This document shows positions 1-31,127 of a stretch of 64,000 nt of DNA, piece after piece. The notes under the pieces were generated by a model, which was not told the origin of the DNA, did not search any database, and was given only the letters and a program-made list of their open reading frames with translations. Each line of letters begins with the position of its first letter. The stretch's first letter is position 1. Made by a program: the position numbers and the translations under genes. The stretch spans positions 1,504,001 through 1,568,000 of the forward strand of contig CAWCKY010000004.1 of NCBI GenBank assembly GCA_963796275.1. Reading direction: 5' to 3'. The DNA comes from an uncultured Acidobacteriota bacterium. GTDB lineage: Bacteria; Acidobacteriota; Blastocatellia; RBC074.

Positions 1-291
1 CATCCGGGCGAAGCCGAAAAATATGACGAGCATCGCCAGCCACCAGGCGAGGTTTTCCAGCCAGGGCAGGAGAGGGCCTTCGATCTCGTTCTCCAGCACC
101 GGTATGAGTGCGCCCGCCCGGCCGATCAGCCTGTCGAAGAATTGCGGCAATGAACTGCCCGCCGGGCTCGTGGGCGCCGGAGGCGGCGTGGGATTGGGCG
201 TCTGAGCGAACGCGGACAGACTCAAGCAACCGGCCACCGCCGCGATGAACAGGATGGAAATTATTGATCGCTTGATTTTGCCTGCTCTCAT
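1..291 (-). CDS. VirB6/TrbL-like inner-membrane T4SS protein (5' part, runs off window)
   Basis: Manual translation MRAGKIKRSIISILFIAAVAGCLSLSAFAQTPNP...LLPWLENLAWWLAMLVIFFGFARM; signal peptide then TM helix; directly downstream of the VirB5-like gene. Confidence 0.55.
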   Translation of the reverse strand, partial: MRAGKIKRSIISILFIAAVAGCLSLSAFAQTPNPTPPPAPTSPAGSSLPQFFDRLIGRAGALIPVLENEIEGPLLPWLENLAWWLAMLVIFFGFARM

Positions 292-300
292 AATTCGTTC

Positions 301-1149
301 TTAGTTGACCTTGCTGAGCGCCCTTTGAAGCACATCGAGCGAGTCGTTGAATTGGCTCCAGGCATCATTCAGAGACTCCACCTGCTCGCCGAACATTCCC
401 CGCTCCTCCATCTGGATGTTGTACTCCCTGACGCGATTCTCGATCTGGCAACGAAGATCCTCGATTTCGGATTCAAGCTGTGCAATCAGCAACTCGTAGC
501 TGGCCAGTTCTTGAGTGAGACTGGCGATGCACGACGCGCACCTCTGGTCCTCGGGCGCTTGCTCCTGTTTCGTGAGGTTGATTCTCGCCTCCTTTTGTTT
601 TCCCTCCGCCCATGCTTTCTTATACATCTTGTATTTCAGTTCGCGCTGCAGCAGTTCAAGCTGATTATCCATTCGAATGAGTCGTTCACGATTGGCGGCG
701 AGGTCTTGGCTGCTCCGCCCGATGGAATTTCTCAGATACTCGTCTAGATCTCTGAGATCGGCTTCCGGATCGAAGATGCCGTTGCGAAGCCGGTCGTCGA
801 TCCTCTTAATCATGTTCAATCGCGTCGTAACGATGGCCTCGAGCTGATCCTTTAACTGAAACGACGCACGCACAGTCCTTCCGATGTTGCTCATCGTGGT
901 GATCGCATTTTTTTGCTTCAATACGAGGTCATCGGCGGCCTTGAGCACACCGCCCAGCGTGGTAAGCTGGTTAACAAGATTCGTGTAATGCTGAAGCCAT
1001 CGATTTGCTTCTTCTACTTTCTTTGCGACCTGAAGCGTGTATTGCGCCGGGTCGTAGACTGTCCACTGCGCCTGTGCTTGTGGCGGTATAAGCAGAACGC
1101 CGATCAGCAGCCCCAGCGCGAACTGACGAAGGAGAGATTTTCTTTTCAT
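301..1149 (-). CDS. VirB5/TrbJ-like secreted T4SS protein
   Basis: Signal peptide ending AQA followed by QWTVYDPAQ (typical TrbJ/VirB5 mature N-terminus); coiled-coil body; follows virB4. Confidence 0.7.
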   Translation of the reverse strand: MKRKSLLRQFALGLLIGVLLIPPQAQAQWTVYDPAQYTLQVAKKVEEANRWLQHYTNLVNQLTTLGGVLKAADDLVLKQKNAITTMSNIGRTVRASFQLKDQLEAIVTTRLNMIKRIDDRLRNGIFDPEADLRDLDEYLRNSIGRSSQDLAANRERLIRMDNQLELLQRELKYKMYKKAWAEGKQKEARINLTKQEQAPEDQRCASCIASLTQELASYELLIAQLESEIEDLRCQIENRVREYNIQMEERGMFGEQVESLNDAWSQFNDSLDVLQRALSKVN

Positions 1150-1179
1150 TACTACCTCACTTCCTCTCACGAATCATAT

Positions 1180-4011
1180 TTATAAAAGCGCCTCGTCTAT
1201 CTCGATCAGTCCTCGCGCCGCCAGTCCTCGCGGATAGACAGTGGCCAGCCACGCTATAACCTTTGTCAGCGGCCAATCCCGCCTGAGCGCCGATACTCTA
1301 GCCCTCGCGTTACGCTCATATGGATTGGTGGTGAACGTCCACAATTCGGCGGGCGAGAGATCGAGTTGGATCATCTCCACGATCTGATCCTGTCCCGATC
1401 CGAGCGCCAGGACGTATTGCGCATACTCTCCCGCGATGTTGTGGATCGCGCTGATCGCCGCCGCCGCGTTTTCCGACAACCCGGCGTCCGCAATCAGCTG
1501 CGAACAATCGCCGATCTGCTTGCCGATGACCTTGATACCGGCAGTCTTCGTGACATCGTGGATTCCGGCAAAGTCTTCGTATGCATGCGTCGCCAGCATC
1601 GTCACGACCGCCTCTTTGCGGCCCATGCGAGCTCCTTTTTTGATCACCCGCAGAATCTCAGGGTACTGCGCCGCGATCTTCCAGACCTCGTCAAAGATCA
1701 GAAGCGCCGGCGTTCGCGTCCCGTCCGATTTGAGCCGGCCTATCGAACGCACCACTCGAGCCGCGACACGATTTGCCAATGTCTCGCGCACGTCCTGGGG
1801 GAAGGCGTCCAGACTGTCGAGTTCATAAACGTCATACGGCGAATCTGCGGCAAAGTCGGGATGCGTCGGCGCATCGAGCCAGGGATGGTCGCGATACTTC
1901 TCCAGGGCCAGCGCCAGCGTCGCGGCGCGCTCGCGCAATCCCACCGTCTGGAATGGATAACTTTCGAGCATCGCAAGCAGATGCGAATGCACTGGCTCGT
2001 GTTTCGGTCTGTCGTGGCCGTTCCGAGGAACTTCATTCCTGTAGACCTCGGTGATGACATTGGTGAGGATATCTTCCGCCACGTTGTCATCCGGCTTGCC
2101 CCTGGCCAGTTTCATCGCATCCATCACGACCAGCGCGATCTGCGTCTCGTCGGGCATCTCTCCCAGCTCCAGCCCCGGATAGTCCCAGACGTTAATGGCG
2201 CGCTTATCGTCTATGCTGAAGCGAAGATGTCTCCCTCTCGTCACATCGGCGTGCGGGCCCAGCGACTCTCCAAAATCCACGGCGCGCACCAGCGCTTCCG
2301 GCAAGGTCGCGAGCACGTCATTGATGACGCGGGCCATGAATGTCGATTTACCGCTCCCCGGCTCGCCGAGCACGAGAGCGAGCGGAGAGCTGATCTTCGC
2401 GCTGTCAAAGAGGTTCAGGCCGATCAACCTTCCAGTCGGCGTCGAGCAGAGCGTGTGCGGCCTCCGCGCTCCTTCCCATGCCGATTCAACCGGGGCGAGC
2501 GCGGCGAGCGATCCCGCGACCTCGGTGATCTCCCTGCCCATCGGTCGATGATCTGCTTCGCCGACGATCGCCCGGTGATATAAGGCACGCAGGGAATCCG
2601 GTTCCTCGCGCGCCGCCTCCACTCCGGGGATCGATTGCATTGCTGTGACCATCTGCTCGCAATACCTGTCGAGATTGTCGAGAGACTGCCTCAGTTCACC
2701 TCGCGTGCGTGCCGGTTCCGCGTAGATGACGGCGTAGAAACGCGTATCGATCAGCGCTTCTCTCGATCCGGTGACGTGATCGCGAACGGTTTCGAGATCG
2801 AGCAGCGCCGCGCGCGCTTCCGGTGACTGCTTCACACGCCCGTCCGCGCGTGTGTACGAGCGTCGTACCTGGCGTATGCGCCGGTCGAGACGTTTTGTGG
2901 CCTTGCGTTGGTCGAGGTATGTGAACTCGGCGATGATCGTGTGGCGAAAATTGAGTGACGGATTCAATGTCAATGAGCGCAATGCATCGGCCGTAATCGC
3001 CGGCTGCGGTGGAGTGAACATCGAGACGATCGCCGCTGGATGTGCCCCGTGCATAATGTGCGAGCCGCTTCCGTCTATCGTCTCGCCGCAGAGATATTCA
3101 CGAATGTCGAAGCCCGGCACAACTGGCAGTATCGGAACACTCCGCGCATTCTGCCTGTGGCCCAAATAGATCGCCTCCCACAACTCTTGCCGGTTGAAAC
3201 GCCGCAGTGACAACGGACATTCGCGCTCGATGAGGCGAAAGACCTTCTCCGCCCTCCCATACGCTTCCCGTTCATCTTTGAGGAGCCGGCGCACCACGCC
3301 GTCGTCGGCGGTCTCCGCCCAGATCGCGCGAATTGTTTTGGGAAGTTTCGTAATGCCGTGCTTTCCAACCTCATCCAGAGCGGCGGGAATGAACGCGCTC
3401 AATCCGCTGTTTGTATCATCTCCCTTCTGACGAACCGGCACGCGCGCCCAGATCGAGAGCGCCTGCCGGCGATAGCTGTGCGCCGCCGCCGCTGCCGCAT
3501 AGAAATCGATATTCATCGCGTGCAGCAGTGCCGCTTCAGGATGCACCAGCGCGGGATCGCCCAAGGCCGCAATATGCGCGTTGATCGCGGCGCCAGGGTC
3601 GGGACCGGACGAAAAACGGAACTGGATCACCGTCCCTGGCGGCTTGTCCACGGCGAGCATTCGCGCCAGTTCGTCACAACGTGCCTCAACGACATGTTCG
3701 TGCGCGAGCATCGTCGGCGCCGTCTGCGCCTCCCACGCGCACGTGTAGGATCCGTCGGTGTGCCGCAGAGCGCCGTCGCAAAATCCGGCAATGGAAGAGT
3801 CGCGCTTTCGACCCGGAGGTGAGGCGAGTTTCAATCGTTCTTCTTTATGTTCCGCAATTCGCCGGTGAAGTTCCGCTTCCTCGCTCCGCTTCCATGCTTG
3901 CAAATCTCGACGGGCGCGAAGCGCGATGGGCAGCAGACGCGATCCGGCGCTGATGCCCAAACCCGCGCCTGCCGCCGCGATGGCGCCTCCGATGATCGTT
4001 AACGGTTCCAT
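1180..4011 (-). CDS. virB4: VirB4-family T4SS ATPase
   Basis: 943 aa; Walker A GEPGSGKS, Walker B LLIFDEVW, C-terminal GARMGRK motif; preceded by VirB2/VirB3-like genes. Confidence 0.9.
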   Translation of the reverse strand: MEPLTIIGGAIAAAGAGLGISAGSRLLPIALRARRDLQAWKRSEEAELHRRIAEHKEERLKLASPPGRKRDSSIAGFCDGALRHTDGSYTCAWEAQTAPTMLAHEHVVEARCDELARMLAVDKPPGTVIQFRFSSGPDPGAAINAHIAALGDPALVHPEAALLHAMNIDFYAAAAAAHSYRRQALSIWARVPVRQKGDDTNSGLSAFIPAALDEVGKHGITKLPKTIRAIWAETADDGVVRRLLKDEREAYGRAEKVFRLIERECPLSLRRFNRQELWEAIYLGHRQNARSVPILPVVPGFDIREYLCGETIDGSGSHIMHGAHPAAIVSMFTPPQPAITADALRSLTLNPSLNFRHTIIAEFTYLDQRKATKRLDRRIRQVRRSYTRADGRVKQSPEARAALLDLETVRDHVTGSREALIDTRFYAVIYAEPARTRGELRQSLDNLDRYCEQMVTAMQSIPGVEAAREEPDSLRALYHRAIVGEADHRPMGREITEVAGSLAALAPVESAWEGARRPHTLCSTPTGRLIGLNLFDSAKISSPLALVLGEPGSGKSTFMARVINDVLATLPEALVRAVDFGESLGPHADVTRGRHLRFSIDDKRAINVWDYPGLELGEMPDETQIALVVMDAMKLARGKPDDNVAEDILTNVITEVYRNEVPRNGHDRPKHEPVHSHLLAMLESYPFQTVGLRERAATLALALEKYRDHPWLDAPTHPDFAADSPYDVYELDSLDAFPQDVRETLANRVAARVVRSIGRLKSDGTRTPALLIFDEVWKIAAQYPEILRVIKKGARMGRKEAVVTMLATHAYEDFAGIHDVTKTAGIKVIGKQIGDCSQLIADAGLSENAAAAISAIHNIAGEYAQYVLALGSGQDQIVEMIQLDLSPAELWTFTTNPYERNARARVSALRRDWPLTKVIAWLATVYPRGLAARGLIEIDEALL

Positions 4012-4358
4012 ACCACTTGTCTTTCACCCCCGATGATCCATCGCCGCCTCGGCTGTCGCGCTCTATCTATCGGGAGCGCGCGCCGATGGATCGGGCTTGT
4101 AAACATTGCGCGTGACCTGTGCTGCAGCCAATAAGGACGCCGCCCAATACGCGCGTAGTTGAAGAAGGCTATGGAGAGCGCCGCTGCGCTCAGTCCCGTC
4201 CACAATTCCAGCGGCGCTCCCCATAGCTTCAGGTCGAACAGAAACGGCGTCGAGTAGGCGATCAGCGTGGCCACAATGACGAACTTCCAGTCCGAGATGA
4301 GCACGCCGAATCGCGCCACCGGCAAGTAGATGTTCGGCCTGATCGATCTAAGCCTCAT
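3999..4358 (-). CDS. VirB3-like small membrane protein
   Basis: 119 aa from MRLRSIRPNIYLP, two TM segments, overlaps the virB4 start. Confidence 0.65.
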   Translation of the reverse strand: MRLRSIRPNIYLPVARFGVLISDWKFVIVATLIAYSTPFLFDLKLWGAPLELWTGLSAAALSIAFFNYARIGRRPYWLQHRSRAMFTSPIHRRALPIDRARQPRRRWIIGGERQVVWNR

Positions 4359-4372
4359 GACTTGTCCCCGCT

Positions 4373-4825
4373 TCAATTTCCCAGATCGGTATCTAAATTG
4401 ACTGCATTCCCCTGGCTGAAACTGTAGATGAGCGACAGGATTCCACCCAGGCTCATACAAATGCCTCCGCCGAGCATCTGCCTGCCCCAAGCCTTTTCCA
4501 TCATGATGTTCGCCGAACCCCATCCCACGCCGCCGACGCCCAGAAGGAAGAGCAGGTTCCGCCCCCATCTGATCGCCTCCCGCACGCCGCTGCCCAACTG
4601 CTGATCATTGCCGCCGAATAGATTGCCGCCAGGCGTTTGCGCAAACGCGGGAACGGTCATCAGTAACACGGTGGCGACAAGGATCAACACAGGTTCAATA
4701 GCCCCAATCAGAACGGCGAGTTGAACAAATGAACGACCCGCTCTGGCAACGCGCGAGCGTTCAAACAGGTCGTCATCCATATCGCAAATACCTGAACGCA
4801 AACGAATCCCTCTCAAGCTATACAT
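4373..4825 (-). CDS. VirB2/TrbC-like pilin
   Basis: Long leader ending PAFA-Q, then two Gly-rich hydrophobic helices; first gene of the virB2-3-4 series; start codon uncertain. Confidence 0.65.
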   Translation of the reverse strand: MYSLRGIRLRSGICDMDDDLFERSRVARAGRSFVQLAVLIGAIEPVLILVATVLLMTVPAFAQTPGGNLFGGNDQQLGSGVREAIRWGRNLLFLLGVGGVGWGSANIMMEKAWGRQMLGGGICMSLGGILSLIYSFSQGNAVNLDTDLGN

Positions 4826-5030
4826 ATGCTCTACTCCATGGTCGATATGATTTGTGTCTGATTCGCCCGCCTTTTCGCCGCGACCGCACATCCGAATCCG
4901 CAGGAATAATTCCAAGAACTCACAGCGGGCAGTTGCGCTCACATAGCAAATCAAACCTCGTGCCACACATTCGCTTGCGGCATCGCTGTTGCTGAGTTAG
5001 CCTGTCGAACTATGTGATGGCGGAGGATGA

Positions 5031-5773
5031 ATGAAGAGGACTGAAAACATCCTGTATTGCAGAGATTTTCTTGTTGATGATTGCTACTACGGCCAGCTGC
5101 GCAAGAAAAAATGTCGAACGATCGCGTGCGAGCAAATGATCGCTCGCAACGAGGCGAAGCACCTGCGCTCGCGTCAAAACCTGATCAGGATTCTACGCGA
5201 TCAGCCGAGCTTCTGGATCGAGTTGCAGGCAATAGCGAGGCGGCTCAAAACAGAGCCCGCGTGGTTGTTGAATGTGATGGCGAGCGAATCATTGTTCGAT
5301 CATACAGCTCGCAATGGGCTTTCCGGACAGACCGCCACAGGATTGTTGCAGTTCATCGAGAGCACGGCGCGGAACATGGGGACGACCACCGAAGCGATCA
5401 GTCGAATGAGCCCTGTCGAACAATTGCGCTTGGTCGAGAGATACCTCACGCCGTTTTGCGGCCGTCTCAACAGCCTGGCCGATGTTTACCTGGCGGTTTT
5501 TCGAGGCTTCATCGTTAAAGGAGGAGATGCGACAGTACATCGCGCCTCTCGATAAATCAAGTAAGAGAGCAGCGTATCTATTCGTTAAACAGGTGGCTCG
5601 ATTTCGATGGTGACGGCAAGATATCCAAGGGCGAGCTGGCGCTCGCGGCGCTCGCCATCGGCCGATTCCAACCAATCACGCCACGGTCCGGCGGGAGACT
5701 CTATCGCAACCCTGCGGAAGCCCCTGATCCTAAGACTGAAACTCCACAGACCCGTTCGATCTATTTTCGTTAG
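5031..5773 (+). CDS. Lytic transglycosylase (VirB1-like), frameshifted near 5540-5570
   Basis: SLT motifs MASES...ATGLLQF...TA; continuation in another frame RIYSLNRWLDFDGDGKISKGE to TAG at 5771-5773. Confidence 0.75.
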
Positions 5774-5875
5774 CTCAATTCTTGCCACTCAATCATCGTT
5801 CTCCGTTACGTTGCCAGTCACCTTTTGAACGCGGTGACTGATACTCGATCAGGCAGAAACCCCAAGCTTTACTTA

Positions 5876-6010
5876 GGCTGTCGGTGTATCCGACACAGCG
5901 CGTCGGATGTTCGACAAAAGGGGTCACAGGAAAACGAAGAATATGTTGAATGAAGCTATTATGCGAAGGAGAGCAAGAGGTGCCGAGACTATCGACACGG
6001 CAATATCTAG
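5876..6010 (+). repeat. Left copy of ~135-bp degenerate direct repeat with three TGTCGR-N4/5-YCGACA-like palindromes
   Basis: Aligns by eye end to end with 14755-14887 (GGCTGTCGG...TGTTGAA.GAAGCTATTATG.GAAG...CAATATCTAG). Confidence 0.85.
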
Positions 6011-6452
6011 GTAGGCCAGCTGTTTTACGGACTGTTTTACGTCTGGTAAGGGCGGAAACGAAAAAACAGGGCGCTTTAGCAGCTTTAGCGTTCTTCCCCC
6101 TATGACTTTAGTCCTCGGGTTTAGACGCTCCGCGTGTCACGCCCGGAGGCAGCCAGCGCTCAGCCGCCAGGTCGCGGTCCTGCTGCGAGATCTTCCCAAC
6201 AGTGTCCCTCGTAATCCAGTGCGCGATAGATCCGACTGCCCCAAAATCCTGGGGCCCGGGAATGATCTCTGCGCTTTCGGCCTTTGCCCGAGCGAATGTC
6301 CGTCTACGTCTTCGACGTAGTGAATTGGCTACGCTTTGAAGCGGTCCGAGAGTTGATTGAGCTTGGGTTGTTTGAACTATATCGTCCCATCAAAATCTAA
6401 CTTTGACAAAGTAGTATTAAGGAATGCGTCAATCACTATCTAGCGAAAACGA

Positions 6453-7043
6453 TTACGCCTCAACATTTCTGCCCGCCTGCTTACTTTTTAATTCCCTTTC
6501 TGCTTTTCCACAAACTTCAATTCCCAACATCCTGGCCTGCTCCACTAACTCCTGCCATTGTTCCTGCTCGCGCGCCAGGCGTTCCTTGACTTCGGCTTCT
6601 TGCTGAGCAATCTGCTGTCGCTGAGTGTCGAACCTCTGCCGGCCGCCCTCTGTCATCTTCATCTTCACCGTTTCCAACTGCGCCCGCTCGCTCGCTTCCA
6701 GGTCTGGCTGCCCCAATCGCTCGTCATACTCGGCCATTTCCTGGTTGAATCCACTATCTTGCGCTTCCAGCCGCTGTTTGACCTTTTGCGCCTGCTCGAT
6801 CTCGCGCTCCAATTGGGCCAGCTTCGCCTGCTGCGATTCGAGCCGGAGCTTAAGCATTTCGATCTTCAAACTTCGCACTTCCGCCGCCAGGCGCCGCACC
6901 AGGGCGGCGAGGTCCGGGACCTGCCGGGCAGCGTCATTCGCGGCAGTTGGCCCCGCAGTTTGGCCGTTGGTCTGCGCCCAACCTGTGACCGTGGCTATGA
7001 TCACCAGACAGGCAGTCGTCACAATCAATCTCGCTCGTTGCAT
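6453..7043 (-). CDS. Secreted coiled-coil hypothetical protein
   Basis: Signal peptide (GWA-Q), Q/E/L-rich heptads, RBS GGAGAG upstream. Confidence 0.75.
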   Translation of the reverse strand: MQRARLIVTTACLVIIATVTGWAQTNGQTAGPTAANDAARQVPDLAALVRRLAAEVRSLKIEMLKLRLESQQAKLAQLEREIEQAQKVKQRLEAQDSGFNQEMAEYDERLGQPDLEASERAQLETVKMKMTEGGRQRFDTQRQQIAQQEAEVKERLAREQEQWQELVEQARMLGIEVCGKAERELKSKQAGRNVEA

Positions 7044-7209
7044 GTTTATCTCTCCGTGTGAAGCGCCTGTCGCCAGACACGGGTCATCAACTCAATGAAC
7101 GAGGCGGGAGGATTGCGAGCGATCTTCCCTGGCATCCGTCCGGCAGGATGCCCATCGCCACAATCCTCGTCGCTTCGCTCGCGCGTGGCGCCAATCGCTA
7201 TCAGCTCAC

Positions 7210-7740
7210 TTACTGCTGCCTATAGATGAGCACCACGTTGTCAATTTCGAAGTCATCGAGTTGGCCGCCAATGTTGCCGTCTGCGTTCCGAGAGCCGATG
7301 AACAGCCTGTTGCCGGCCTCTGTAAGCGTGTTATTCCCGACTATCCCGATCTCCGAAAAGTACTCGCCGTCATGGTCATCATGGTGCGGGAGCAGGGCGT
7401 TCGTGACCGCGACCCCATTGATCGTGATGACGTTGTTACTGAAATCCACGTCCCTAGTCCGGAGCAGCAGGACCGCTCTCATGCCGGCATTAACGTCTGG
7501 AGCGTCGAAGATGACCTCGTAATCATCGCCGACGCCGCTGTCGCCGAGATGCACAGGGCTGCCGATGAGGACGCGGAAGCTGGATTGGTCGACCAGGGCG
7601 GACGAAGCCAGCGCATTAGACGCCGACGTCGCGCTACCGATCACCGAGAGTGGCAATGCCAATGACAACGCGGCCAGAATCATCGCGAATCTCGCCACGC
7701 TCTTTTTTCCAAATTTGCTGAGTGTATGCTGTTTAATCAT
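7210..7740 (-). CDS. Secreted beta-rich hypothetical protein
   Basis: Signal peptide; beta-sandwich-like pattern ending LDDFEIDNVVLIY; RBS AAAGGA upstream. Confidence 0.75.
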   Translation of the reverse strand: MIKQHTLSKFGKKSVARFAMILAALSLALPLSVIGSATSASNALASSALVDQSSFRVLIGSPVHLGDSGVGDDYEVIFDAPDVNAGMRAVLLLRTRDVDFSNNVITINGVAVTNALLPHHDDHDGEYFSEIGIVGNNTLTEAGNRLFIGSRNADGNIGGQLDDFEIDNVVLIYRQQ

Positions 7741-19122: not shown

Positions 19123-19180
19123 CTGACATAGTCATTCTTTTTTGTAAGACCATTACACAGGTCAGAGGATTACTACAGCA

Positions 19181-20863: not shown

Positions 20864-20882
20864 TTCCGGAACCGAGGTTGTA

Positions 20883-22718: not shown

Positions 22719-22865
22719 AGATGAGGAGATCATCCCGCTGGATCCCATTCTCTATCCCCTCATCGAGGAGCGGCAAACAGGCTTATCGCATTCGCCCATC
22801 CCCGAGAGCGTTAGAACAGCTGACGCCGTCCTGACGCGCATCAATGGCGAGGAGGAAGCAGGGGC

Positions 22866-23393: not shown

Positions 23394-26300
23394 TGCGGGA
23401 AATTATGCGCGCCGTGGTCAAGGTCAAACCGATGGGAGGCAAGGGCGCTTCCCGCGTGGCTCGTTACATCGCGGAAAGCAAGCTCGATCCCGTTCGCGAG
23501 GGCAAACGACGCCCCTTGTTCTCGGACCGCGATGGCGATCCGGCCGGGAGCGACGACCGGACATATCGCAAAGCCGACCGGTACCTGAGCGGCGGTCGCG
23601 GTGCTCCGCTCAAGAAAAACCTCATCCATTTCTCGGTCAGCTTTCGCGAAGAAGATTTCAAGCGTCTGGGTGCAAGCGACGATGAACGCAAAGGTCGATT
23701 GCGCGATGTAACGCGCGAGGCCATGGCCGGGGTTCAAGACGATCTGAACGTGGCCGGCTGGCGATGGATCGCCGGAATTCACCTCAACACCCTTCATCCA
23801 CACATCCACATAGTCGGTCACAAAGAAGTTACCGACCGCGAGACGGCCCTGCCACGCCGCCTGGGAAAGCTTCCCAAATGGATGCTGCCCCACAAAGAGC
23901 GGGAGTCTGACACCGCGATCCAGCCGGTGGACGGCGGCATCGCCGGGCATTTCATCGCGGCGCTGAACCGGGGACAGGAGCGTGCGAGGGAGGCGGAACG
24001 AGCAAGAGAGGATATCGCTATGAGCCCCAATAAGACGAAAAAATCGATTTCTCGTAAAGCAGTAAGCGTGAGGAAGGCCGAATTCTACAGGAAGGATGAA
24101 GCGCGCAGACGCGCGAACCCTCCCTGGCTCGATCGCATGCTGGAGATCGCCTCCCGTAACCCATCGCTCGGCGGGCGAGAACTGACGCTGGACATCCTCG
24201 GGCGAGAATCGAGGCTGGAACCGAAGCACGTAGAACCGAACTCGACTGACGACAGGGTCCGAGAGGAACCGAACCCGACTGACGACATCCGCTCCGCTTT
24301 CGCCAACGGGGGTTTGGACAATTCAGACTATCGTACTCCGCGGGATCAAGCCGCGTGGTTGGGCGAATACAGCAAGAGCCTGCGTGATCTCTACGAGCGT
24401 GGCGCTGAGGTCAAAGGCGACACGCTGATCATCCCAGCTGAGGAGCATGAGGTTCCGGACGAGCGCGATCACATACGCGTCATCAGCATCTCGCACGCGT
24501 TCGAGAAGATTCGAGACCCGAAGCTCGCGATGGAATTTCATTCCCTCGCCCGCGCCATCGCCGGGGAGTCCGCCGACACGGGAACCGAGATCAAGTTCTT
24601 TAAGCAATACTACGATCTGATCGAGCTCGATGCCGAAGGTAACAGACTCGACCGCCAGGATAATAATTACGAGAAAGAGCGCATAGCGGCACTCGACCGG
24701 ACGCTTGGGGAGATGCGTTTTCTCGCCGGCGAGATGGCGAGACTGGAGACGAAAGTGAGTCTCGACATAGTCCCATCGATTATGGAGCGCTCTCACGTCT
24801 ACCGGCATATTCAGGATTACGAGCGGGCCTCTGAGTTCTATTCGCTCGCCCAGGTCATCGCCGGGCCGGATGCCGATCTGCAAAAAGAGACCCAGGTCTT
24901 CAGCTACTACTACGGCAAACTCGAGAGAGATGACGCGGGACACCTGTTGACTCCAGAGAACGAGGCCGGAAGGCTGCAAGCCATCGATCGGACGGCCGCG
25001 GAGATGCGCCACGCGATCGAGCAGAAGGCAGAGATACCCGAATATGACGGAATCGCTCATGCTGTGGTCTCCCTCGATGAAGCAGCGGAACGCGAGGACA
25101 GGCACGAAGAAGATGAAGAGCATTCATTCATCGACGATGCGATCGATTATGGAGCCGGTGATGACACGGATGATCTTGACGGACCGGAGTACGAATACAC
25201 TATCGAGGAAGCATACGGTGAGCGCGAAGCGGAGGCGGCGGCCTGGCAATTCAACACCGCCGCGCGCAAGGTCAACCTCAAGCAGCTGAGCTTTCCCGGA
25301 GGGCTGGCGCCCGCGACCAAAGAATGGTTGATCGAGTTCAAAATCCCGGAGATCGATAAGCGGATCGAGAACGGCGCCAGCCTCATCGATAAAAAAGATA
25401 AAGACGGGGCAGTGCTGGAAAAAGGCATATTGTCCGACATCAATCGACTGGTCCAGCCCGAACGCGTCGAAATGTTGCGAAGAGTATCGGAAGCGGCGGG
25501 GGTGCGTGGAGACGAAGCACTTGTTCGCGCACCTAATACCAATGATATCGCCGAAGCCAGGCGCATACTTCTCGAACTTTGTGCTCACGAGAAGAGCGAG
25601 TTGGAGCGCAGGCGCGAGTTGCGCTCGAGGCTCGATTCAAACGACGAACGTGATCCGGGAGAAGCACGGACAAGAGTAGACACGGGCAGCTCCTACGTCT
25701 TCAATGGCAATACAGCCGCCCGTCTCGGACATATCGAAAGATTTATCGATGGTGTCCAGAAAAACCAGGTCGAACCCGCCGCGGGCCGGAGATCGATCCG
25801 TCCTTCGGATTCCAGCCTCTATGTGAGCCTGTCGAGCGACGATGAAGCGCCGCGCCTGCCAGCCGGCAATATCCGCGTCTACGATGCGATAGAGAAAATG
25901 GCGACCGGGGCAAAGCTCCAATTGTCCACCTGGATCGGTAGAGACGGCCCGGCGCTCATCAACGGTTTTACGGAGAAAGAATATGATTATCGGGTGAAGA
26001 TCGCCGGGTTCCTCAGAAGCTACGTCCAGGAGCGCCTCCGCGACCCGGAAACCCGCATCGCTCACGACAACGAAGACTTCCGCATCGCCCGTAATGCGCT
26101 CGACCGTGCGCGTGATTATGGAGAACTCAACCGCACGGCTTATGCCTTCATGAGCAGGAACGAGCGTGAGGGCAGACTGCTCAGCGAACAGGAGCGCCAG
26201 CTGCTCTTCTACGGCCGCACTCCGGATCATTACAAACCGCAGATGAGAGAACTACGGCAAGCCTGGGGGTTGCCGCGAGAAGGGCGTGAACAGGCGCTGC

Positions 26301-28794
26301 GCGACGGGCGGCTGCCGCCGTCCGCGACACTCATCAAGATGACCGATGAGCTTGAATCGCGCCGCAACGTCGAGTCGGTACGCCAGTATCAGAAGTCCTT
26401 GACGACTCCTCCCGAACAGATGCGCAACCCTGGCAGACTGCCCCTGTACCAGATGCATAAAAAGCTACTGGGGCACGAACGGGATTATCTTTTCCATCTG
26501 ACCGAGGAGATGAAACGATACCTGCCGGGTAAAGAGCCTCCGGTTCGCGAAGCGGAAAAATCTCCCGATGAGGCGGCGACGGGTCGTGCGTTCGGCGAAG
26601 CCCCAAATGAGAGCAAGTCATACAAGGAATACCTGGCCTCACTCGGAGAGATCAAGCGGCGACTGCTCGAAGAAGCTGTTTCACGCTTAAATAATGATAG
26701 AGGTTCGATTAACCACGCCGAACAGGTCCGAGTTCACAATCGCGCCTGCGACCTCGCCTGGGAACGACTCACATCCGAGGAAGTCTTCTCTTCACGGCCT
26801 TCAGAGCAGGCCCTTCGTTTGAGCGATGTGATAGCAAAGCTACAGGAGGAAGCGCAACCTCGGGCCCGGCTGGCGACTCAGGTACTCGATGAGTTCAGCA
26901 AAGAGAACATCCCGTCTTACGCAAATGGCCGGGTTCCCAGGGACGCCCTGGAACAACTGGATCCGTCTCTCAAGGATCGCTATAAGCAGCTCAAAGACTA
27001 TGCAAGCAGGACACGCGAGAGCTGTATCGTGGCTTCGAGGCTATCGATGGGATACGGAAAGAGATTGAAAAAGCTCGCGCCGAAGAGCGGATGGCTGATC
27101 GGATCACTCTTGGCAATGCGATCGTCGCCGAAGCACGTTATGAATGTGCGAGACTGGACTATGAGACGGCGCGCGATCACGGCGAGACATTCCGTTTTCG
27201 TATTCGTGACGAAAGCCTGAAAGCTAACCGCAGGATATCCGCGTTCGACGTCGAACGGCGCGCGGATGCCCGAGGAACGAGGGCCGCCGGCGAACGCGGG
27301 GCCGATCGCGCGGAGGAGCGACGGGGCATCAGGCAGGAGGTCGCGGCGCTCGACCTGGTCAATCACGCGGCGACCCTGCTGGAGCACGGTACAGTTCAGA
27401 GAACCCGGGTCAACAAACTCAAGGCGGAATCCGACAGGGCCGCGTACGAGAGCCTGATGGCCCAGGATAGAGCTCAGGATGTCAGGGCGAAATATCAGGA
27501 ACGCGGGGAGCAGATTCCAGCCCCTTTCATCAAGCGAAAGACGCTGACCGAGACTCAGGAACTGACCGTCAGGCATGGGCTCGCGGGACAGACCGAAACG
27601 CTCGAACAAATACGTGTAGCGCAGTCGAAGGAATTCAATCGGCCCGCGCGTACGGAGACTGAAACGGCCCGCCTCCGGGCGCAGCTATACGTTGCCCTGA
27701 CCGACTTCCAGGTGAGAGAGGAACGTGCCTCGCGCTACGATCGAACGCGACATCTCAGGCAGTGGGAGTTCGGCGGTGAGAAATGGTCGCTGGCCGATGT
27801 CGACCGGAAAATCGAACGGCTATCCGATGATGGCAAGATATTCGGCAGATACGAGCTTCACCTTGATTCCCTTGACCGCGAATCCGCGAAAGACGAGATC
27901 GGACACCAGAAAGCGATAAGAAATGAGATCGTCGCCAGGACCACGGAGCATCAGGGCGAACTGCGCAATCAGAAAGAGAGAGCGGGCGAGCTTGTCCAGA
28001 CGCTTTCCATTGCCTATGAACGCGAATCGGAGCGTCGCGCACAAACCGGCCAGGAGATACCGAATCCGATATTCGCGCGAGACGAGCTCGAGCGCATTGC
28101 GGACAATGCCGCCACGACGCGCGACGCAGCGATGCTCAGGCAATTCTATGAGTTCGAACGAGGATTCAACAACTATGCCGCTCCGAAGGAACAAATCTCA
28201 CCGGAGCGGCAGCTTGCGCGTGCGCTCGGCCGCGAAACGATGGCGGAAGTCTTCCTTCACGAGAGCGCGGAAAGGCTCTCGAACTTCCGGGACAGGAAAG
28301 ATGTTCAGCCTCTTCTGGTCGAAATGCCAGACGGCCATCTCATCACCCGCAGGTACACGGACACACAGCCGCGGTCGCCCCTGGAGCGGATAGCCCACCC
28401 CTTGATCGAGACTCCGTCGGAGCGCGATATCCGTGAATCGGTAAGGACGGCTCTGCAACATCAGCAACACTACCTAACTGCCGACCTGGAGAAGAGTCGG
28501 GCCTACTTTGAAGCGGCGAGGGAGATCGCCGATACCCTTTCCTACGGCAGAGAAAATGGCAGTTATATAAACCCGCCTTCGCGGGAATTCTCGCCGAAAG
28601 AGGAGATGAACATCGAGGTCTTCGCCGAGCGGCTGACTGACGAGGGACAGCGGGAACATTACCTGAGCCTTGTCGACCCAGAGCGTGGTTCCGCCACATC
28701 CCGACACGATTCACATAACAATTCTGATCACCAGAGGGAGGCGGCAACGCTCTCCCCGGATATGCCTGTGCCCGGAGTGGCGCGCGGGCGCTAA
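23393..28794 (+). CDS. Very large (~1800 aa) HUH relaxase, MOBP-like; one frameshift near 27020
   Basis: N-terminal ARYIA tyrosine motif, HFSVSF, and IHLNTLHPHIH triad; ORFs 23393..27220 and 27091..28794 join; follows virD4. Confidence 0.85.
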
Positions 28795-28824
28795 ATCAAT
28801 CTCAATAAATGGAGGAGTAATTCT

Positions 28825-29097
28825 ATGAACGACAACCATTCTCAAGATCGCCAGCTTGCTGCCGAACCGGTGCAGGTATGGGTCTATCAGGACAACGTCG
28901 AGGCATTGATGAAAATCTGCGAGGAGGACGGGTTCCAGCCGGGCGAGGTGCTGCGGCACGCATTCGACGAGTGGCTGAGCAGGCTTCCCACCCTCACCGA
29001 ATTGTTCAGCGAGTCCATGCCGATATGCGATCCGGCTGAGACGACAGTTTCATCCAGTGAGAATCTCTTAGAAAGGATCCAGCGCGATGAATGGTGA
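28825..29097 (+). CDS. Ribbon-helix-helix-like small DNA-binding protein
   Basis: VQVWVY..LMKICEEDGFQPGEVLRHAFDEWL; strong RBS GGAGGAG; paralog of the next gene. Confidence 0.6.
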   Translation: MNDNHSQDRQLAAEPVQVWVYQDNVEALMKICEEDGFQPGEVLRHAFDEWLSRLPTLTELFSESMPICDPAETTVSSSENLLERIQRDEW

Positions 29098-29172
29098 ATC
29101 CCAATTGCGAGAGCGAGACCGCCGAACAAGCCCAGACAATCAAGACAAAGAGAGGAGGCGTCGGAATCTGCT

Positions 29173-29691
29173 GTGAAGAATAACACTAATGGCCGCCTGC
29201 TCGGTCAAACGTGCTCCTGTCGGCCCTACCAGGACAACTATGACGAGATTATAAAAATCTGCGAGCAGACAGGGCGCAAGCCCGCCGAAGTGCTGCGAGA
29301 TGCCATAGACGAGTGGCTGCTCATGCGCCATGGTTCCGAAACTGGCAGCGACGTCCTGCCATCAGACAACCGGCGGAGCGATCTTGGGGAGGAGATCAAG
29401 GAACTGCGTGAGGACATCAGGCGGCTCGCAGAGCGACAAGAGAAGTTGGTCAAAAGCCTCGACTATGTGCAAAGACGGGACCACGGATATCTGCTCGAAA
29501 TCTTCATGGCCGCCTATGGAGCGAGAGACCTGATATGGAGGGACATCTCAAACAGGATGCGCCATGGCAGACAGATGCCGGAATCGATTCAGGCGCAGTA
29601 CGAGGCTTTCGAGCAGGAATGGAGCGCACAGTGCGATGCGACGGCGGAGCAGGATCAAAGAGATTATCCGGAAAGGAAGACCTCATGCTGA
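29173..29691 (+). CDS. RHH-like + coiled-coil protein (relaxosome accessory candidate)
   Basis: IIKICEQTGRKPAEVLRDAIDEWL then coiled coil; probable frameshift near the 3' end. Confidence 0.6.
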   Translation: MKNNTNGRLLGQTCSCRPYQDNYDEIIKICEQTGRKPAEVLRDAIDEWLLMRHGSETGSDVLPSDNRRSDLGEEIKELREDIRRLAERQEKLVKSLDYVQRRDHGYLLEIFMAAYGARDLIWRDISNRMRHGRQMPESIQAQYEAFEQEWSAQCDATAEQDQRDYPERKTSC

Positions 29692-30474
29692 GACTTGATA
29701 TCGACCGTCCTGACGGCTCATCTGGACTCCGGAGCCGGATCGAGAGCGTCTACGATCGGATCGCGGGCAATGACGACTACCAGCGAAACGACCGTAGCCT
29801 CAAACTGATCCAATTCTGCGTAATCACAGTGAGCGCCGGTGCGACCGGATTTGTGAACGCGTTCGCTCACACGGAAAGACTCGGGTGGATCGGCGCGAAC
29901 TTACTGGCGGCCCTCATCACAGGATTCGTCGAGAAGTTCTACTTCACTCTGCGACACGGACTCGTGACTATCTACAGGTCGAGAAAGCAACGATTCGCCG
30001 CAAAACTCTGCTACCGGGCGATTCAGGCGACGATGATCCTCAATGCGACGATCCTCTGCGCCTGGGTAACTGGGATTACGCTGCCAGAGATTTTTCAAAG
30101 CTGGAATAAGCTTTCAATCGCCATACATTTTGGATTGGCCCTGATAGGAGTTTCGGCGGTGCGTGATCATGATGCGGTCACTGAGAGCCGCATCCGTGAA
30201 CTGAAGGCGGACGCCGCGCGTGAGGACATCGTCACGATCCGTAGGGCTGCCGCGGGAGACAGCCCATTTCCTATTGCTTGCGGCAAAACTCAGAGGATGG
30301 CTCGATGGAATCAATTTGGCTTTCGAACTCCTGCGCGACAAGACAGGAATCTCTGCCAACAACGTTAAACAGATCAGCTTCGGCCCAGACGGCACGTACC
30401 TGTTAGGCGGGAATGACGAGATAAACCAGGAAGGCAACCTGACTGATATCTCGGGAAAACGCCTGCGCCGGTGA
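29685..30474 (+). CDS. Multi-pass membrane hypothetical protein (frameshift ~30270)
   Basis: About four TM segments from MLRLDIDRP; ORFs 29535..30368 and 30220..30474 join. Confidence 0.6.
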
Positions 30475-31127
30475 GCGTTGAGCCAGCCCTTATGCCTGGA
30501 GCAGACCCTCAGCTTCAGGCGCCGCCACCGGCGCAAAGCAATCTGTCCGACCTGGCCGTCTCTGGAGCCACCGGATCAAATGGGCGATCAGAGGATGAGC
30601 AAGAAACCGTATATGTGCGGGGGAGCAATGAAGAACAACCGGGGGAGCATTTGGGGGAGCAGGCCTTAGAGGACACCGGTAATCCGGGGGAGCAAATGAT
30701 CGAGATCGACCGAGGGAGCAAGAACGTGAATACGGAGGAGCAATCCACACTCAAACGGGGGAGCAGTAATGAGAGGATGGGGGATTCTGCATCCGCCGGT
30801 GAAGATATGGTGGATGCGCCGGCATCGCAATGGTTGAAAACATTGTTGCCAGAAGGATCCGGTGGATGGTGGGACGTTTACCCGAAAGACAACGGTTTTG
30901 CAGTCAGGTTCCGCTGGCGCGATCAAGGGCGGCAAACGCTCACCTTTCCACAAATTAGTTACCAACATCTGCAAGAGTTGAAGCAGAGTAGCCCCGATGA
31001 AACAGGAATGAAAATAAACGAGCGAATTACAGACAGCCTTCGCAAATATTTACTCGATCCGGAAAAACGCAACAAAGCCATGCTCGTCGCTCGGAAACTT
31101 GGGATCGATCTCGATGACTCGCAATAG
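30471..31127 (+). CDS. Hypothetical protein with disordered N-half and compact C-terminal domain
   Basis: Overlapping GTGA start; last gene of the co-oriented run. Confidence 0.65.
   Translation: MSVEPALMPGADPQLQAPPPAQSNLSDLAVSGATGSNGRSEDEQETVYVRGSNEEQPGEHLGEQALEDTGNPGEQMIEIDRGSKNVNTEEQSTLKRGSSNERMGDSASAGEDMVDAPASQWLKTLLPEGSGGWWDVYPKDNGFAVRFRWRDQGRQTLTFPQISYQHLQELKQSSPDETGMKINERITDSLRKYLLDPEKRNKAMLVARKLGIDLDDSQ
30618..30765 (+). repeat. Seven copies of CGGGGGAGCA-like 10-mer inside the ORF
   Basis: Starts at 30618, 30640, 30652, 30685, 30711, 30733, 30756. Confidence 0.85.

What the first reader, a model, noticed from the sequence alone, without database searches (positions are those of the whole stretch)
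1..31127. Conjugation system that may not fit the described MPF classes
Seen: two divergent modules, B2-B3-B4-B5-B6 on the minus strand and B8-B9-B10-MoxR-pilin-like-D4-pilin-like-relaxase-RHH-RHH on the plus strand. There is no VirB11 and no F-type TraH/N/U/W in the window, and most subunits are recognisable only by topology and order. Known: the standard MPF classes (T, F, I, G, B, C, FA, FATA) include none specific to Acidobacteriota. Inference: a lineage-specific T4SS.
Basis: partly seen in the sequence, partly recalled or inferred. Interest (0 to 1): 0.72.

Follow-up and report, generated by a model that had tools for sequence, protein, structure and literature searches.

The report
Unclassified conjugation machinery in Blastocatellia ICE
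The window holds the DNA-transfer machinery of a large integrated mobile element from a soil acidobacterium, and its key motor protein falls outside every conjugation class it could be compared with.

Summary
VirB6/B5/B4/B3/B2-like genes lie on the minus strand. SLT, VirB8/B9/B10-like genes, a MoxR-like AAA+ ATPase, VirD4 and a MobL/MOBP-type relaxase lie on the plus strand.

Only VirD4 passes a curated family threshold. Predicted folds match VirB8 and VirB9/TraK. The two "pilin-like" labels and the two "RHH" labels are not supported.

No VirB11, TraU or TraH was found beside the element or anywhere in the genome.

The module belongs to a ~111 kb ICE in tRNA-Phe (49-bp att repeat, tyrosine integrase at the far end). 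The genome has two more copies, next to tRNA-Arg and tRNA-Pro.

The VirB4 family forms a 100/100 clade outside reference clades labelled MPF_T, F, B and C, the FATA pair, and single I and FA representatives. It scores ≤8 bits against any reference. MPF_G was tested only by its NCBIfam model, which gave no hit.

The family occurs in 31 of 120 sampled species of the class and essentially nowhere else in the phylum. Other acidobacterial VirB4s group with MPF_T.

The many broken reading frames here are most likely assembly errors, because rpoB and rpoC are fragmented too.

Verdict: a lineage-restricted T4SS variant and a candidate new MPF class.

The parts
1..291 (-). 5' part of the VirB6-like gene. 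The gene continues left of the window to G000:C4:1502169. In relatives it is one 664-710 aa protein with a polytopic membrane domain and a ~340 aa Gln/Ala/Gly-rich C-terminal domain.
   Evidence: Hydropathy and read-through in relatives. 60 of 61 loci have the fused form. 0 of 14 members hit any Pfam family. VirB6 identity rests on topology and position only.
301..1170 (-). VirB5/TrbJ-like secreted coiled-coil protein
   Evidence: TrbJ NF010448 E=1.4e-4 and DUF4141 E=4.5e-4, both below cut-off. hhalign against R751 TrbJ gives prob 74, E=2.8e-5. Sec signal followed by a QWTV(Y/F)DPAQY motif is conserved.
1180..4011 (-). VirB4-family ATPase (943 aa)
   Evidence: TIGR02746 64.9 bits, TIGR00929 45.4 bits, both far below cut-offs. 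hhalign prob 97.5-98.9 against TrwK, TrbE, TraC and TraG. Trees.
3999..4358 (-). VirB3-like small membrane protein
   Evidence: Two hydrophobic segments, lies just upstream of VirB4, present in 66 of 80 loci. Best hhalign hit is F TraL at E=0.003, which is weak.
4373..4780 (-). VirB2-like pilin precursor
   Evidence: Long leader ending AFA|Q, then two hydrophobic segments. Present in 63 of 80 loci. No family hit.
5031..5555 (+). Lytic transglycosylase (VirB1-like role)
   Evidence: PF01464 SLT, E=4e-7, above cut-off. Present in all 3 copies in this genome and in 7 of 80 loci.
5600..15700 (.). Copy-specific ~10 kb insertion between the two modules. It holds a secreted coiled-coil protein (6453-7043), an unknown protein (7210-7740), a sigma-70-like protein (8254-9405), a Trans_reg_C + STAND ATPase + TPR regulator read in three pieces (10533-13614) and a TPR protein (13686-14420).
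   Evidence: Pfam and NCBIfam. Absent from the C2 and C3 copies, where SLT and the VirB8-like gene are 1.5-1.7 kb apart. Found in 0-1 of 80 loci.
15742..16434 (+). VirB8-like bitopic protein. As assembled, its frame is broken at about 16220 and 16282.
   Evidence: AlphaFold2 model of the intact homologue has pLDDT 79. Foldseek top hits are all VirB8 family (5cnl, 8rtd TrwG, 4lso, 2bhm, TraE, DotI, CagV), target TM-score 0.7-0.79. Frame breaks.
16643..17698 (+). VirB9/TraK-like outer-membrane core protein with two beta domains
   Evidence: Model pLDDT 74. The ten best Foldseek hits are all VirB9-family chains: F TraK 7spb at E=7e-10, pED208 7oko, R388 TrwF, Xanthomonas VirB9, DotH and CagX.
17695..19122 (+). 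VirB10/TraM-like protein
   Evidence: TrbI E=3.2e-4. Among 24 homologues, 13 hit Transposon_TraM (best E=1.2e-5) and 3 hit TrbI. One N-terminal TM segment.
19181..20210 (+). MoxR-like AAA+ ATPase. It is 342 aa in relatives. Here it is read in two frames (19181-19966 and 19887-20210).
   Evidence: AAA_5 E=3.9e-12. MadB-family NF047784 at 96.6 bits, below its cut-off. Intact in C2 and in relatives. Present in 42 of 80 loci. Also linked to the distant VirB4 relative in G099, E=4e-43.
20429..20863 (+). Conserved protein of unknown function (about 145-165 aa in relatives). Not pilin-like.
   Evidence: Present in 34 of 80 loci. No hydrophobic segment. The middle of the window copy is out of frame relative to its relatives.
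20883..22718 (+). VirD4 coupling protein
   Evidence: PF02534 at 133.4 bits, TraG-D_C and TrwB_AAD_bind. NF045973 CD1115 family at 171.9 bits, cut-off 250.
22866..23393 (+). Conserved protein anchored in the membrane at its N-terminus. Not a pilin.
   Evidence: One N-terminal hydrophobic segment. GspG E=0.015 only. No lipobox in 0 of 16 homologues.
23393..28794 (+). MobL/MOBP-type relaxase. It is about 1790 aa in close relatives. Here it is read as two ORFs (23393-27220 and 27091-28794).
   Evidence: MobL E=1.2e-4, PF03432 E=9.4e-4, MobP3 E=1.8e-5. 54 of the 60 best homologues carry PF18555 and/or PF03432. The two ORFs map to residues 1-1201 and 1224-1790 of P0292.
28825..31127 (+).
   Evidence: tblastn between the copies. 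No family hits.
1..64000 (.). The whole window lies inside a ~111 kb integrative element, about G000:C4:1500376-1611432.
   Evidence: tRNA-Phe at C4:1500350-1500425. A 49-bp direct repeat of tRNA nt 27-75 (98% identity) at C4:1611384-1611432. A tyrosine integrase at C4:1610111-1610605.

Best explanation
The region is the mating-pair-formation and DNA-processing module of a ~111 kb integrative and conjugative element inserted in the 3' end of tRNA-Phe.

Likely mechanism (inferred from homology, not tested):
- A tyrosine integrase at the far end excises the element.
- The MobL/MOBP-type relaxase nicks it.
- VirD4 hands the DNA to an envelope-spanning channel.
- The channel is built from VirB3/VirB4, an extended VirB6-like protein, VirB8, and a VirB9/VirB10 outer-membrane core.
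- A VirB2-like pilin and a TrbJ/VirB5-like protein complete it, and an SLT opens the cell wall.
- There is no VirB11.
- A MoxR-like AAA+ ATPase is a constant extra component. I guess that it helps assembly.

The machine belongs to a family restricted, among the genomes sampled, to one acidobacterial class. Sources name its relatives Blastocatellia. Its VirB4 forms its own deep clade outside every MPF class that could be sampled. It is therefore a lineage-specific T4SS variant and a candidate for a new MPF class.
For: Components:
- VirD4 is above the Pfam cut-off.
- VirB4 is homologous to TrwK, TrbE, TraC and TraG at hhalign prob 97.5-98.9.
- The VirB8 fold and the VirB9/TraK fold come from models built on 26-sequence alignments.
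- VirB10/TraM hits occur in 13 plus 3 of 24 homologues.
- TrbJ-like, SLT, relaxase family.

ICE:
- tRNA-Phe, a 49-bp repeat 111 kb away, and an adjacent integrase.
- The two other copies lie next to tRNA-Arg (with an integrase) and tRNA-Pro.

Separate lineage:
- phmmer against all PDB chains finds no T4SS protein at E<=1.
- The best of 72,556 plasmids is E=1e-7, 23% identity over 43% of the query.
- Pairwise scores to nine reference VirB4s are <=8 bits. References within a class score 67-86 bits and references between classes <=18-19 bits.
- The family HMM scores all classes alike, except a weaker FATA member (pCF10 PrgJ, 21.7 bits) and FA (9.6 bits). The rest score 35-55 bits.
- In the careful ML tree (34 rows x 827 columns) the family is 100/100 on a stem of 0.88. 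The stems of the T, B and F clades are 0.80-0.97 and that of C is 1.51.
- Other acidobacterial VirB4s group with MPF_T, not with this family.
- TIGR03744, the MPF_G model, finds nothing in the genome.

Conservation and range:
- 80 syntenic loci.
- 31 of 120 species, 19 of 47 genera and 6 of 10 families of the class.
- 1 weak match in 100 genomes across the phylum.
Against: - No experimental evidence of transfer.
- No MPF_G sequence was in the tree. MPF_I and MPF_FA have one representative each.
- The MPF_B, C, FA and FATA labels are recalled, not given by a tool. MOB-suite, as printed by the tool, calls those plasmids MPF_T or leaves them untyped.
- Deep branches joining the family to its nearest relatives are weak (63/71 and 38/7).
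- An AU test of family plus MPF_F did not finish.
- More distant relatives of the family (P0199 group) score 85-183 bits on the F-type TraC model. A remote tie to MPF_F is therefore not excluded.
- VirB6-, B3- and B2-like identities rest on topology and position only.
- As assembled, at least six genes of this copy have broken frames.
- The role of the MoxR-like ATPase is a guess.
Confidence: 0.7

Rival explanations
1. It is a very divergent member or sister of an existing MPF class. The candidates are MPF_F (the best single model hit), the Bacteroides-type class (TraM-like VirB10) and the unsampled MPF_G. It would then not be a separate class.
For: - TraC-F-type is the best NCBIfam hit for VirB4 (64.9 bits).
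- All 162 plasmid matches listed or tallied are in enterobacterial-type hosts, and the 40 listed are traC.
- The related P0199 group scores 85-183 bits on that model.
- F-type systems also lack VirB11 (recalled).
- The best structural match of the VirB9-like protein is F TraK.
- 13 of 24 VirB10-like homologues hit Bacteroides TraM.
- No MPF_G sequence was in the tree.
Against: - The MPF_F (4 rows), MPF_B (3) and MPF_C (4) reference clades are each 100/100 and exclude the family.
- A 99/93 split separates the family from F, B, T, I, FA and FATA.
- F-type signature proteins TraU and TraH have no match in the genome.
- The MPF_G VirB4 model has no match.
- All accessory hits are below curated cut-offs.
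Confidence: 0.2
2. This copy is a decaying, non-functional remnant of an ICE. Its VirB6-, VirB8-, MoxR-, unknown-protein and relaxase genes are pseudogenes.
For: Frame breaks relative to intact relatives occur in at least six genes. The indels at 16220 and 16282 are not in homopolymers.
Against: - The essential genes rpoB and rpoC are read in 8 and 6 pieces in the same assembly, and the only PilT-like gene is split. Frame errors are therefore genome-wide.
- Two public metagenome contigs lack the VirB8-like indels where they cover them. One (X1) has 2 differing letters in about 270 bases. The other (X3) is about 91% identical.
- Both att sites and an integrase are in place.
Confidence: 0.07
3. 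The T4SS serves effector delivery or DNA release/uptake rather than conjugation.
For: No transfer has been shown. The MoxR-like ATPase and several conserved unknown proteins have no conjugation counterpart.
Against: The T4SS is always linked to VirD4 and, where loci reach far enough, a relaxase. The element has the tRNA att repeat and integrase anatomy of an ICE. There are multiple diverged copies per genome at different tRNAs.
Confidence: 0.03

Closest known systems
MPF_T (VirB/D4 of pTi, R388 Trw, IncP Trb)
   Same: It has VirB1-like, B2, B3, B4, B5/TrbJ, B6, B8, B9, B10 and D4 counterparts. B8-B9-B10 are in the same order. The VirB8 and VirB9 folds match R388 chains.
   Different: No VirB11 and no VirB7 lipoprotein seen. 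VirB4 scores 2-8 bits against TrwK and TrbE, whereas these two score 84-86 bits against each other, and it lies outside the T clade. It has an extra MoxR-like ATPase and a VirB6 with a 340-aa C-terminal domain.
MPF_F (F plasmid Tra)
   Same: No VirB11 (recalled for F). Best VirB4 model hit. Best VirB9 structural hit is TraK. The VirB6-like protein has a large C-terminal extension, as F TraG does (938 aa).
   Different: TraU and TraH are not found in the genome. No hits to other F-specific families among the ORFs scanned. VirB4 lies outside the 100/100 F clade.
Bacteroides-type conjugative transposon systems (MPF_B; label recalled)
   Same: VirB10-like homologues hit Transposon_TraM (13 of 24). 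The VirB5-like N-terminus hits DUF4141. Some VirB4 homologues carry precomputed P-loop_TraG hits.
   Different: All hits are below cut-off. VirB4 lies outside the 100/100 clade of three Bacteroidota TraG proteins. hhalign of the VirB5/8/9/6-like families to p5482 proteins gives nothing.
Acidobacteria lineage basal to MPF_T (Guglielmini et al. 2013, PMC3548315; passages read)
   Same: Same phylum, and a diderm T4SS.
   Different: Other acidobacterial VirB4s (9 of 100 genomes, TIGR00929 at 141-251 bits) group with R388 and R751 in the tree. This family does not. The paper's text does not name its species, and its supplements could not be seen.

Membership tests
Type IV secretion system (conjugative, diderm type) | VirB4-family ATPase | tested here: met
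   hhalign prob 97.5-98.9 against TrwK, TrbE, TraC and TraG. TIGR02746 E=3.5e-18.
Type IV secretion system (conjugative, diderm type) | Coupling protein and relaxase | tested here: met
   VirD4 PF02534 at 133 bits. The relaxase family carries MobL/PF03432 in 54 of the 60 best homologues.
Type IV secretion system (conjugative, diderm type) | Envelope core: VirB8, VirB9 and VirB10 homologues | tested here: met
   Fold matches. TraM/TrbI hits among homologues.
Integrative and conjugative element | Integrase, and direct repeats at a tRNA target | tested here: met
   tRNA-Phe, a 49-bp repeat at 98% identity 111 kb away, and an adjacent tyrosine integrase.
Integrative and conjugative element | Excision and transfer observed | not testable with these tools
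   Needs PCR for the circular form and mating assays.
MPF_T | VirB4 inside the MPF_T clade / passes TIGR00929 | tested here: not met
   45.4 bits against a cut-off of 643. Outside the T clade.
MPF_T | VirB11 ATPase present | tested here: not met
   The only T2SSE-family locus in the genome is on C6. None is on C2, C3 or C4.
MPF_F | VirB4 inside the TraC clade / passes TIGR02746 | tested here: not met
   64.9 bits against a cut-off of 567. Outside the 100/100 clade of 4 TraC proteins.
MPF_F | F-specific genes (TraU, TraH and others) | tested here: not met
   PF06834 and PF06122 have no match in the genome at E<=0.01. TraN, TraW, TraF and TrbC were checked only through Pfam scans of the listed ORFs.
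MPF_B (label recalled) | VirB4 inside the Bacteroidota TraG clade | tested here: not met
   Outside the 100/100 clade of 3 TraG proteins. TIGR03783 is not among the hits at E<=0.1.
MPF_C (label recalled) | VirB4 inside the cyanobacterial clade | tested here: not met
   Outside the 100/100 clade of 4 cyanobacterial plasmid proteins. Pairwise score is 2 bits.
MPF_I | VirB4 groups with TraU/DotO | tested here: inconclusive
   One representative only (R64 TraU). Pairwise score is 0 bits and it lies on the other side of the 99/93 split.
MPF_FA / MPF_FATA (labels partly recalled) | VirB4 groups with monoderm systems | tested here: not met
   Pairwise scores are <=0 bits. pGO1, pCF10 and pCW3 lie on the other side of the 99/93 split. 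VirB9/VirB10 outer-membrane components are present.
MPF_G | VirB4 matches the PFL_4706-type ATPase (TIGR03744) | tested here: not met
   No hit at E<=0.1 for the window protein and none in the genome at E<=0.01. No MPF_G sequence could be fetched for the tree, so placement in a tree was not tested.

The most novel reading that the evidence does not exclude
The Blastocatellia family represents a ninth, diderm MPF class, probably together with its more distant relatives (the P0199 group, which includes the acidobacterial genome G099). Its signature is a MoxR-like AAA+ ATPase in the T4SS operon where other systems have VirB11 or nothing, plus a VirB6 fused to a large Gln/Ala/Gly-rich domain. The MoxR-like gene is also linked to the distant VirB4 relative in G099 (E=4e-43), which suggests an old association.
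Probability: 0.4. Interest if true: 0.7.

Novelty: new variant of a known kind. Interest (0 to 1): 0.6.

Why it matters
Acidobacteriota are among the most abundant soil bacteria, yet little is known about how they exchange genes.

This conjugation system scores far below the curated VirB4 model cut-offs. The nearest plasmid relative found, Myxococcus pYRE, is typed 'non-mobilizable'. Tools built on such models may therefore miss the family, and ICEs of up to about 111 kb would go uncounted in about a quarter of the sampled species of one class. That would understate horizontal transfer in soil.

If the family is a separate class, the eight-class MPF scheme needs extending. It would also offer a T4SS that works without VirB11 but with a MoxR-type ATPase, which is a testable variant of the assembly and energising steps.

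Tried and rejected
- Decay reading. I first read the split VirB6-, VirB8-, MoxR-, unknown-protein and relaxase genes as pseudogenes. I rejected this after rpoB (8 pieces) and rpoC (6 pieces) proved equally broken.
- Read laying on three coded runs. The contigs cover the VirB8-like indels. The MoxR frame break near 19886 has no listed piece across it, so it is not resolved.
- Exact search for the tRNA-Phe 3' end in the contig found nothing. The repeat appeared only with blastn-short.
- Profile searches of the VirB8-, VirB9- and VirB10-like alignments against PDB sequences gave no T4SS hit. Only the fold searches did.
- hhalign of family alignments against single R388, R751, F and p5482 proteins gave nothing beyond VirB4 and TrbJ.
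- The AU test (family plus MPF_F as one clade) did not finish in two 300-s runs and was dropped.
- An MPF_G reference could not be obtained: AY257538 is not in the collections. AP001918 and BR000038 were not held either, so RefSeq numbers were used.
- A literature search for the 'MadB' AAA ATPase found only unrelated proteins.
- Searches for an acidobacterial, Blastocatellia or new-MPF description found none beyond the 2013 note of one Acidobacteria MPF_T. This covers only the held library.
- The search of earlier findings returned nothing.
- I read the 124-aa ORF left of the window as an AlpA-like excisionase from its sequence alone. Pfam gave no hit.

Full report
**What is there.**
ORF listing and family scans confirm two divergent gene sets.

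Minus strand:
- a gene that runs off the left edge (1-291);
- a TrbJ/VirB5-like secreted coiled-coil protein (301-1170; TrbJ E=1.4e-4, DUF4141 E=4.5e-4);
- a 943-aa VirB4-family ATPase (1180-4011);
- a small two-helix membrane protein (3999-4358);
- a pilin-precursor-like protein (4373-4780).

Plus strand:
- an SLT transglycosylase (5031-5555; above the Pfam cut-off);
- after a ~10 kb gap, a bitopic protein (15742-);
- a 351-aa protein (16643-17698);
- a TrbI-weak protein (17695-19122);
- a MoxR-like AAA+ ATPase (19181-);
- an unknown protein (20429-20863);
- VirD4 (20883-22718; PF02534 at 133 bits);
- an N-terminally anchored protein (22866-23393);
- a relaxase with weak MobL/MobP3 hits (23393-);
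- small unknown ORFs up to 31127.

Only VirD4 and SLT pass curated cut-offs. VirB4 reaches 64.9 bits on TIGR02746 (cut-off 567) and 45.4 bits on TIGR00929 (cut-off 643).

**Left edge and VirB11.**
The genome holding the window was available. The window is G000:C4:1504001-1568000. Left of the window lie the rest of the edge gene, a 347-aa ORF and a 124-aa ORF. Then come AlkZ-like, tRNA-Phe, Dus, HD, Pta, MutL and AspRS genes.

No VirB11 lies there. The only T2SSE-family locus in the 9.46 Mb genome is on contig C6. The F-type signature families TraU and TraH have no match in the genome.

**Relatives and gene models.**
The genome has three copies of the module, on C4, C3 and C2. They are 65-75% identical in protein and have the same order.

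A database search finds hundreds of VirB4 homologues. Those that carry names are called Blastocatellia or Acidobacteria.

A scan of one genome per species found 97 matching stretches, of which 80 loci were kept. Nearly all are titled Blastocatellia, Pyrinomonadaceae, Chloracidobacterium or Acidobacteriota. A few MAGs carry odd labels.

tblastn of the window's proteins on these 80 loci gives the counts below. Many loci are cut by contig ends or by the 10 kb flank.

| Protein | Loci of 80 |
|---|---|
| VirB4 | 80 |
| B5-like | 74 |
| B6-like | 70 |
| B3-like | 66 |
| 347-aa ORF | 63 |
| B2-like | 63 |
| B8-like | 53 |
| B9-like | 49 |
| B10-like | 45 |
| MoxR-like | 42 |
| Unknown protein | 34 |
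| VirD4 | 30 |
| Anchored protein | 23 |
| SLT | 7 |
| Relaxase | 5 |

Genes of the 5.6-15.7 kb stretch occur in 0-1 of 80 loci and are absent from the C2 and C3 copies. That stretch is therefore an insertion specific to this copy. It carries a sigma-70-like gene and a Trans_reg_C-STAND-TPR regulator.

In 60 of 61 loci the edge gene and the 347-aa ORF are one protein of 664-710 aa. It has about six hydrophobic segments followed by a Gln/Ala/Gly-rich domain. None of 14 members hits any Pfam family.

**Broken frames are probably assembly errors.**
Compared with intact relatives, the window copy has frame breaks in these genes:
- the VirB6-like gene;
- the VirB8-like gene (two indels 62 nt apart with a stop between them);
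- the MoxR-like gene;
- the unknown gene at 20429;
- the relaxase. Its two ORFs map to residues 1-1201 and 1224-1790 of a 1790-aa homologue that is 84-88% identical.

I first took this for decay. However, rpoB is read in 8 pieces and rpoC in 6 in the same assembly, and the only PilT-like gene is split. Two public metagenome contigs also lack the VirB8-like indels where they cover them. One has 2 differing letters in about 270 bases, and the other is about 91% identical. Frame errors are therefore genome-wide, and I do not claim pseudogenes.

**Identity of the subunits.**
- Profiles of the B8-, B9- and B10-like families find no T4SS protein among PDB sequences.
- An AlphaFold2 model of the B8-like protein (26-sequence alignment, pLDDT 79) matches only VirB8-family structures at the top. 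These are IcmL-like 5cnl, R388 TrwG, Bartonella, Brucella and Agrobacterium VirB8, pKM101 TraE, DotI and CagV, with target TM-scores of 0.7-0.79.
- The B9-like model (pLDDT 74, two beta domains) has ten best hits that are all VirB9-family outer-membrane core chains. F TraK comes first at E=7e-10.
- Of 24 B10-like homologues, 13 hit Bacteroides Transposon_TraM (best E=1.2e-5) and 3 hit TrbI.
- The B5-like family aligns with R751 TrbJ (hhalign prob 74). It has a conserved Sec signal followed by QWTV(Y/F)DPAQY.
- Of the 60 best relaxase homologues, 54 carry MobL and/or PF03432.
- The two 'pilin-like' genes are not pilins, and the 'RHH' genes have no hit.
- No lipobox was seen in the conserved proteins checked, so no VirB7 candidate was found.

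**The element.**
A 49-bp direct repeat of tRNA-Phe nt 27-75 (98% identity) lies at C4:1611384-1611432. It is next to a tyrosine integrase at C4:1610111-1610605. The module therefore belongs to a ~111 kb ICE that covers the whole window.

The C3 copy ends with an integrase and tRNA-Arg. The C2 copy lies beside tRNA-Pro. In all three cases the tRNA 3' end faces the element.

**Relation to the MPF classes.**
Sequence-level distance:
- phmmer of VirB4 against all PDB chains gives no T4SS hit at E<=1.
- The best of 72,556 plasmids is an F-type traC at E=1e-7, 23% identity over 43% of the query.

Reference VirB4s were fetched from plasmids:
- F, IncC, Aquicella and Citrobacter TraC, labelled MPF_F. 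The tool's MOB-suite typing printed MPF_F for F and IncC only; the Aquicella and Citrobacter plasmids are untyped, so their label rests on the traC annotation.
- R388 and R751, typed MPF_T.
- R64, typed MPF_I.
- Three Bacteroidota TraG proteins, four cyanobacterial proteins, pGO1, pCF10 and pCW3. I labelled these MPF_B, C, FATA and FA from recall and from passages.

Pairwise phmmer scores:

| Comparison | Bits |
|---|---|
| Window VirB4 vs any of the nine references then in hand | <=8 |
| Between classes | <=18-19 |
| Within MPF_T | 84-86 |
| Within FATA | 67-71 |

The family HMM scores most classes at 35-55 bits. pCF10 PrgJ (21.7 bits) and pCW3 TcpF (9.6 bits) score lower.

The careful IQ-TREE run used 34 rows x 827 columns. 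Eleven family rows of the first tree were dropped for time. Results, given as ultrafast bootstrap / SH-aLRT:
- family (9 rows): 100/100, stem 0.88;
- MPF_C: 100/100;
- MPF_B: 100/100;
- MPF_F: 100/100;
- MPF_T: 100/99;
- FATA: 98/92;
- a split at 99/93 puts T, B, F, I, FA, FATA and two untyped plasmids on one side, and C, the family and its distant relatives on the other.

The family's link to those distant relatives (the P0199 group) is weak (63/71). That group scores 91-179 bits to the window protein and 85-183 bits on the TraC-F model.

The MPF_G model TIGR03744 finds nothing. No MPF_G sequence could be placed in the tree.

**Other acidobacterial T4SS.**
In 100 genomes drawn across the phylum, 9 have VirB4s scoring 141-251 bits on TIGR00929, and none is above the cut-off. 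Four of the five loci returned were added to a quick tree, with four other rows dropped for time. They group with R388 and R751 (SH-aLRT 92, 97 and 86), while the window family stays apart at 100.

This fits the 2013 report of an Acidobacteria lineage basal to MPF_T (passages read). It also shows that the present family is a different thing.

**Range.**
The VirB4 is found in 31 of 120 other species of the class, in 19 of 47 genera and 6 of 10 families, at E<=1e-50. Across the phylum sample it is found in 1 of 100 genomes, a 24%-identical relative in G099.

In G099 the distant VirB4 sits beside B3-, B2-, B10- and B9-like ORFs and a MoxR-like ATPase. That ATPase scores E=4e-43 on the family's model. 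The MoxR link is therefore older than the family. The Myxococcus plasmid pYRE, the best plasmid match of the P0199 group, lacks it.

**Reading.**
This is a conjugative T4SS of the diderm type on a tRNA-targeting ICE. It has no VirB11, a constant MoxR-like AAA+ ATPase and an extended VirB6.

Shown here: homology or fold of VirB4, VirD4, VirB8, VirB9, SLT and the relaxase family; the att and integrase anatomy; the phylogenetic separation; and the taxonomic range.

Inferred: the VirB2, B3, B5, B6 and B10 roles; the transfer mechanism; and any role of the MoxR-like protein.

**Literature.**
No description of this family was found in four searches of the held library. A 2025 review passage still cites the VirB4-based MPF classification of Guglielmini et al. 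2013.

**Verdict.**
I rate it a new variant of a known kind, with about 0.4 probability that it merits a ninth MPF class.

Noticed in passing
G000:C6:1266086-1274588 and C6:1118604-1119774 (outside the window): rpoB is read in 8 pieces, rpoC in 6, and the only T2SSE/PilT-like gene in 2. The assembly carries many frame errors, so split genes anywhere in this genome should not be read as pseudogenes.
   Followed up: yes
window 5600-15700: A ~10 kb insertion between the two T4SS modules, absent from the two other copies. It carries a 383-aa sigma-70-like protein and a Trans_reg_C + STAND ATPase + TPR regulator read in three pieces. It may be a regulatory cargo or control module for this copy.
   Followed up: partly
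G000:C3 ~47-79 kb and G000:C2 ~682-712 kb: Two further copies of the same T4SS/relaxase module, 65-75% identical in protein. One is next to tRNA-Arg with an integrase, the other next to tRNA-Pro. That makes three related ICEs at three tRNA genes in one genome.
   Followed up: partly
window 36716-50757: Cargo inside the ICE includes MacB/FtsX-type ABC permeases (36716-37675 and 44007-46754), an M23 peptidase, a Clp_N protein and a DUF2201 VWA-like/metallopeptidase protein (46640-47956). Four 830-920 aa ORFs further right were not examined.
   Followed up: no
L108 (Myxococcus stipitatus plasmid pYRE, NZ_CP102771.1): This 50 kb plasmid is typed 'non-mobilizable' but carries a VirD4-like gene, two small ORFs, an 858-aa VirB4 relative and four unknown ORFs in a row. 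It looks like another T4SS that standard typing misses.
   Followed up: partly
L007, L011, L081, L008, L018, L020-L022, L025, L027, L048, L062, L066, L079: MAGs titled Gammaproteobacteria, Clostridia, Heliobacteriaceae, Heliomicrobium, Burkholderiales or Actinomycetota carry this Blastocatellia-type module at 49-77% VirB4 identity. Mislabelled or contaminated bins seem more likely than transfer across phyla, but this was not checked.
   Followed up: no
G000:C4:1501788-1502162 (just left of the window): A 124-aa ORF whose C-terminus looks like an AlpA/excisionase-type helix-turn-helix by eye. Pfam gave no hit. It has homologues in 2 of 80 loci.
   Followed up: partly
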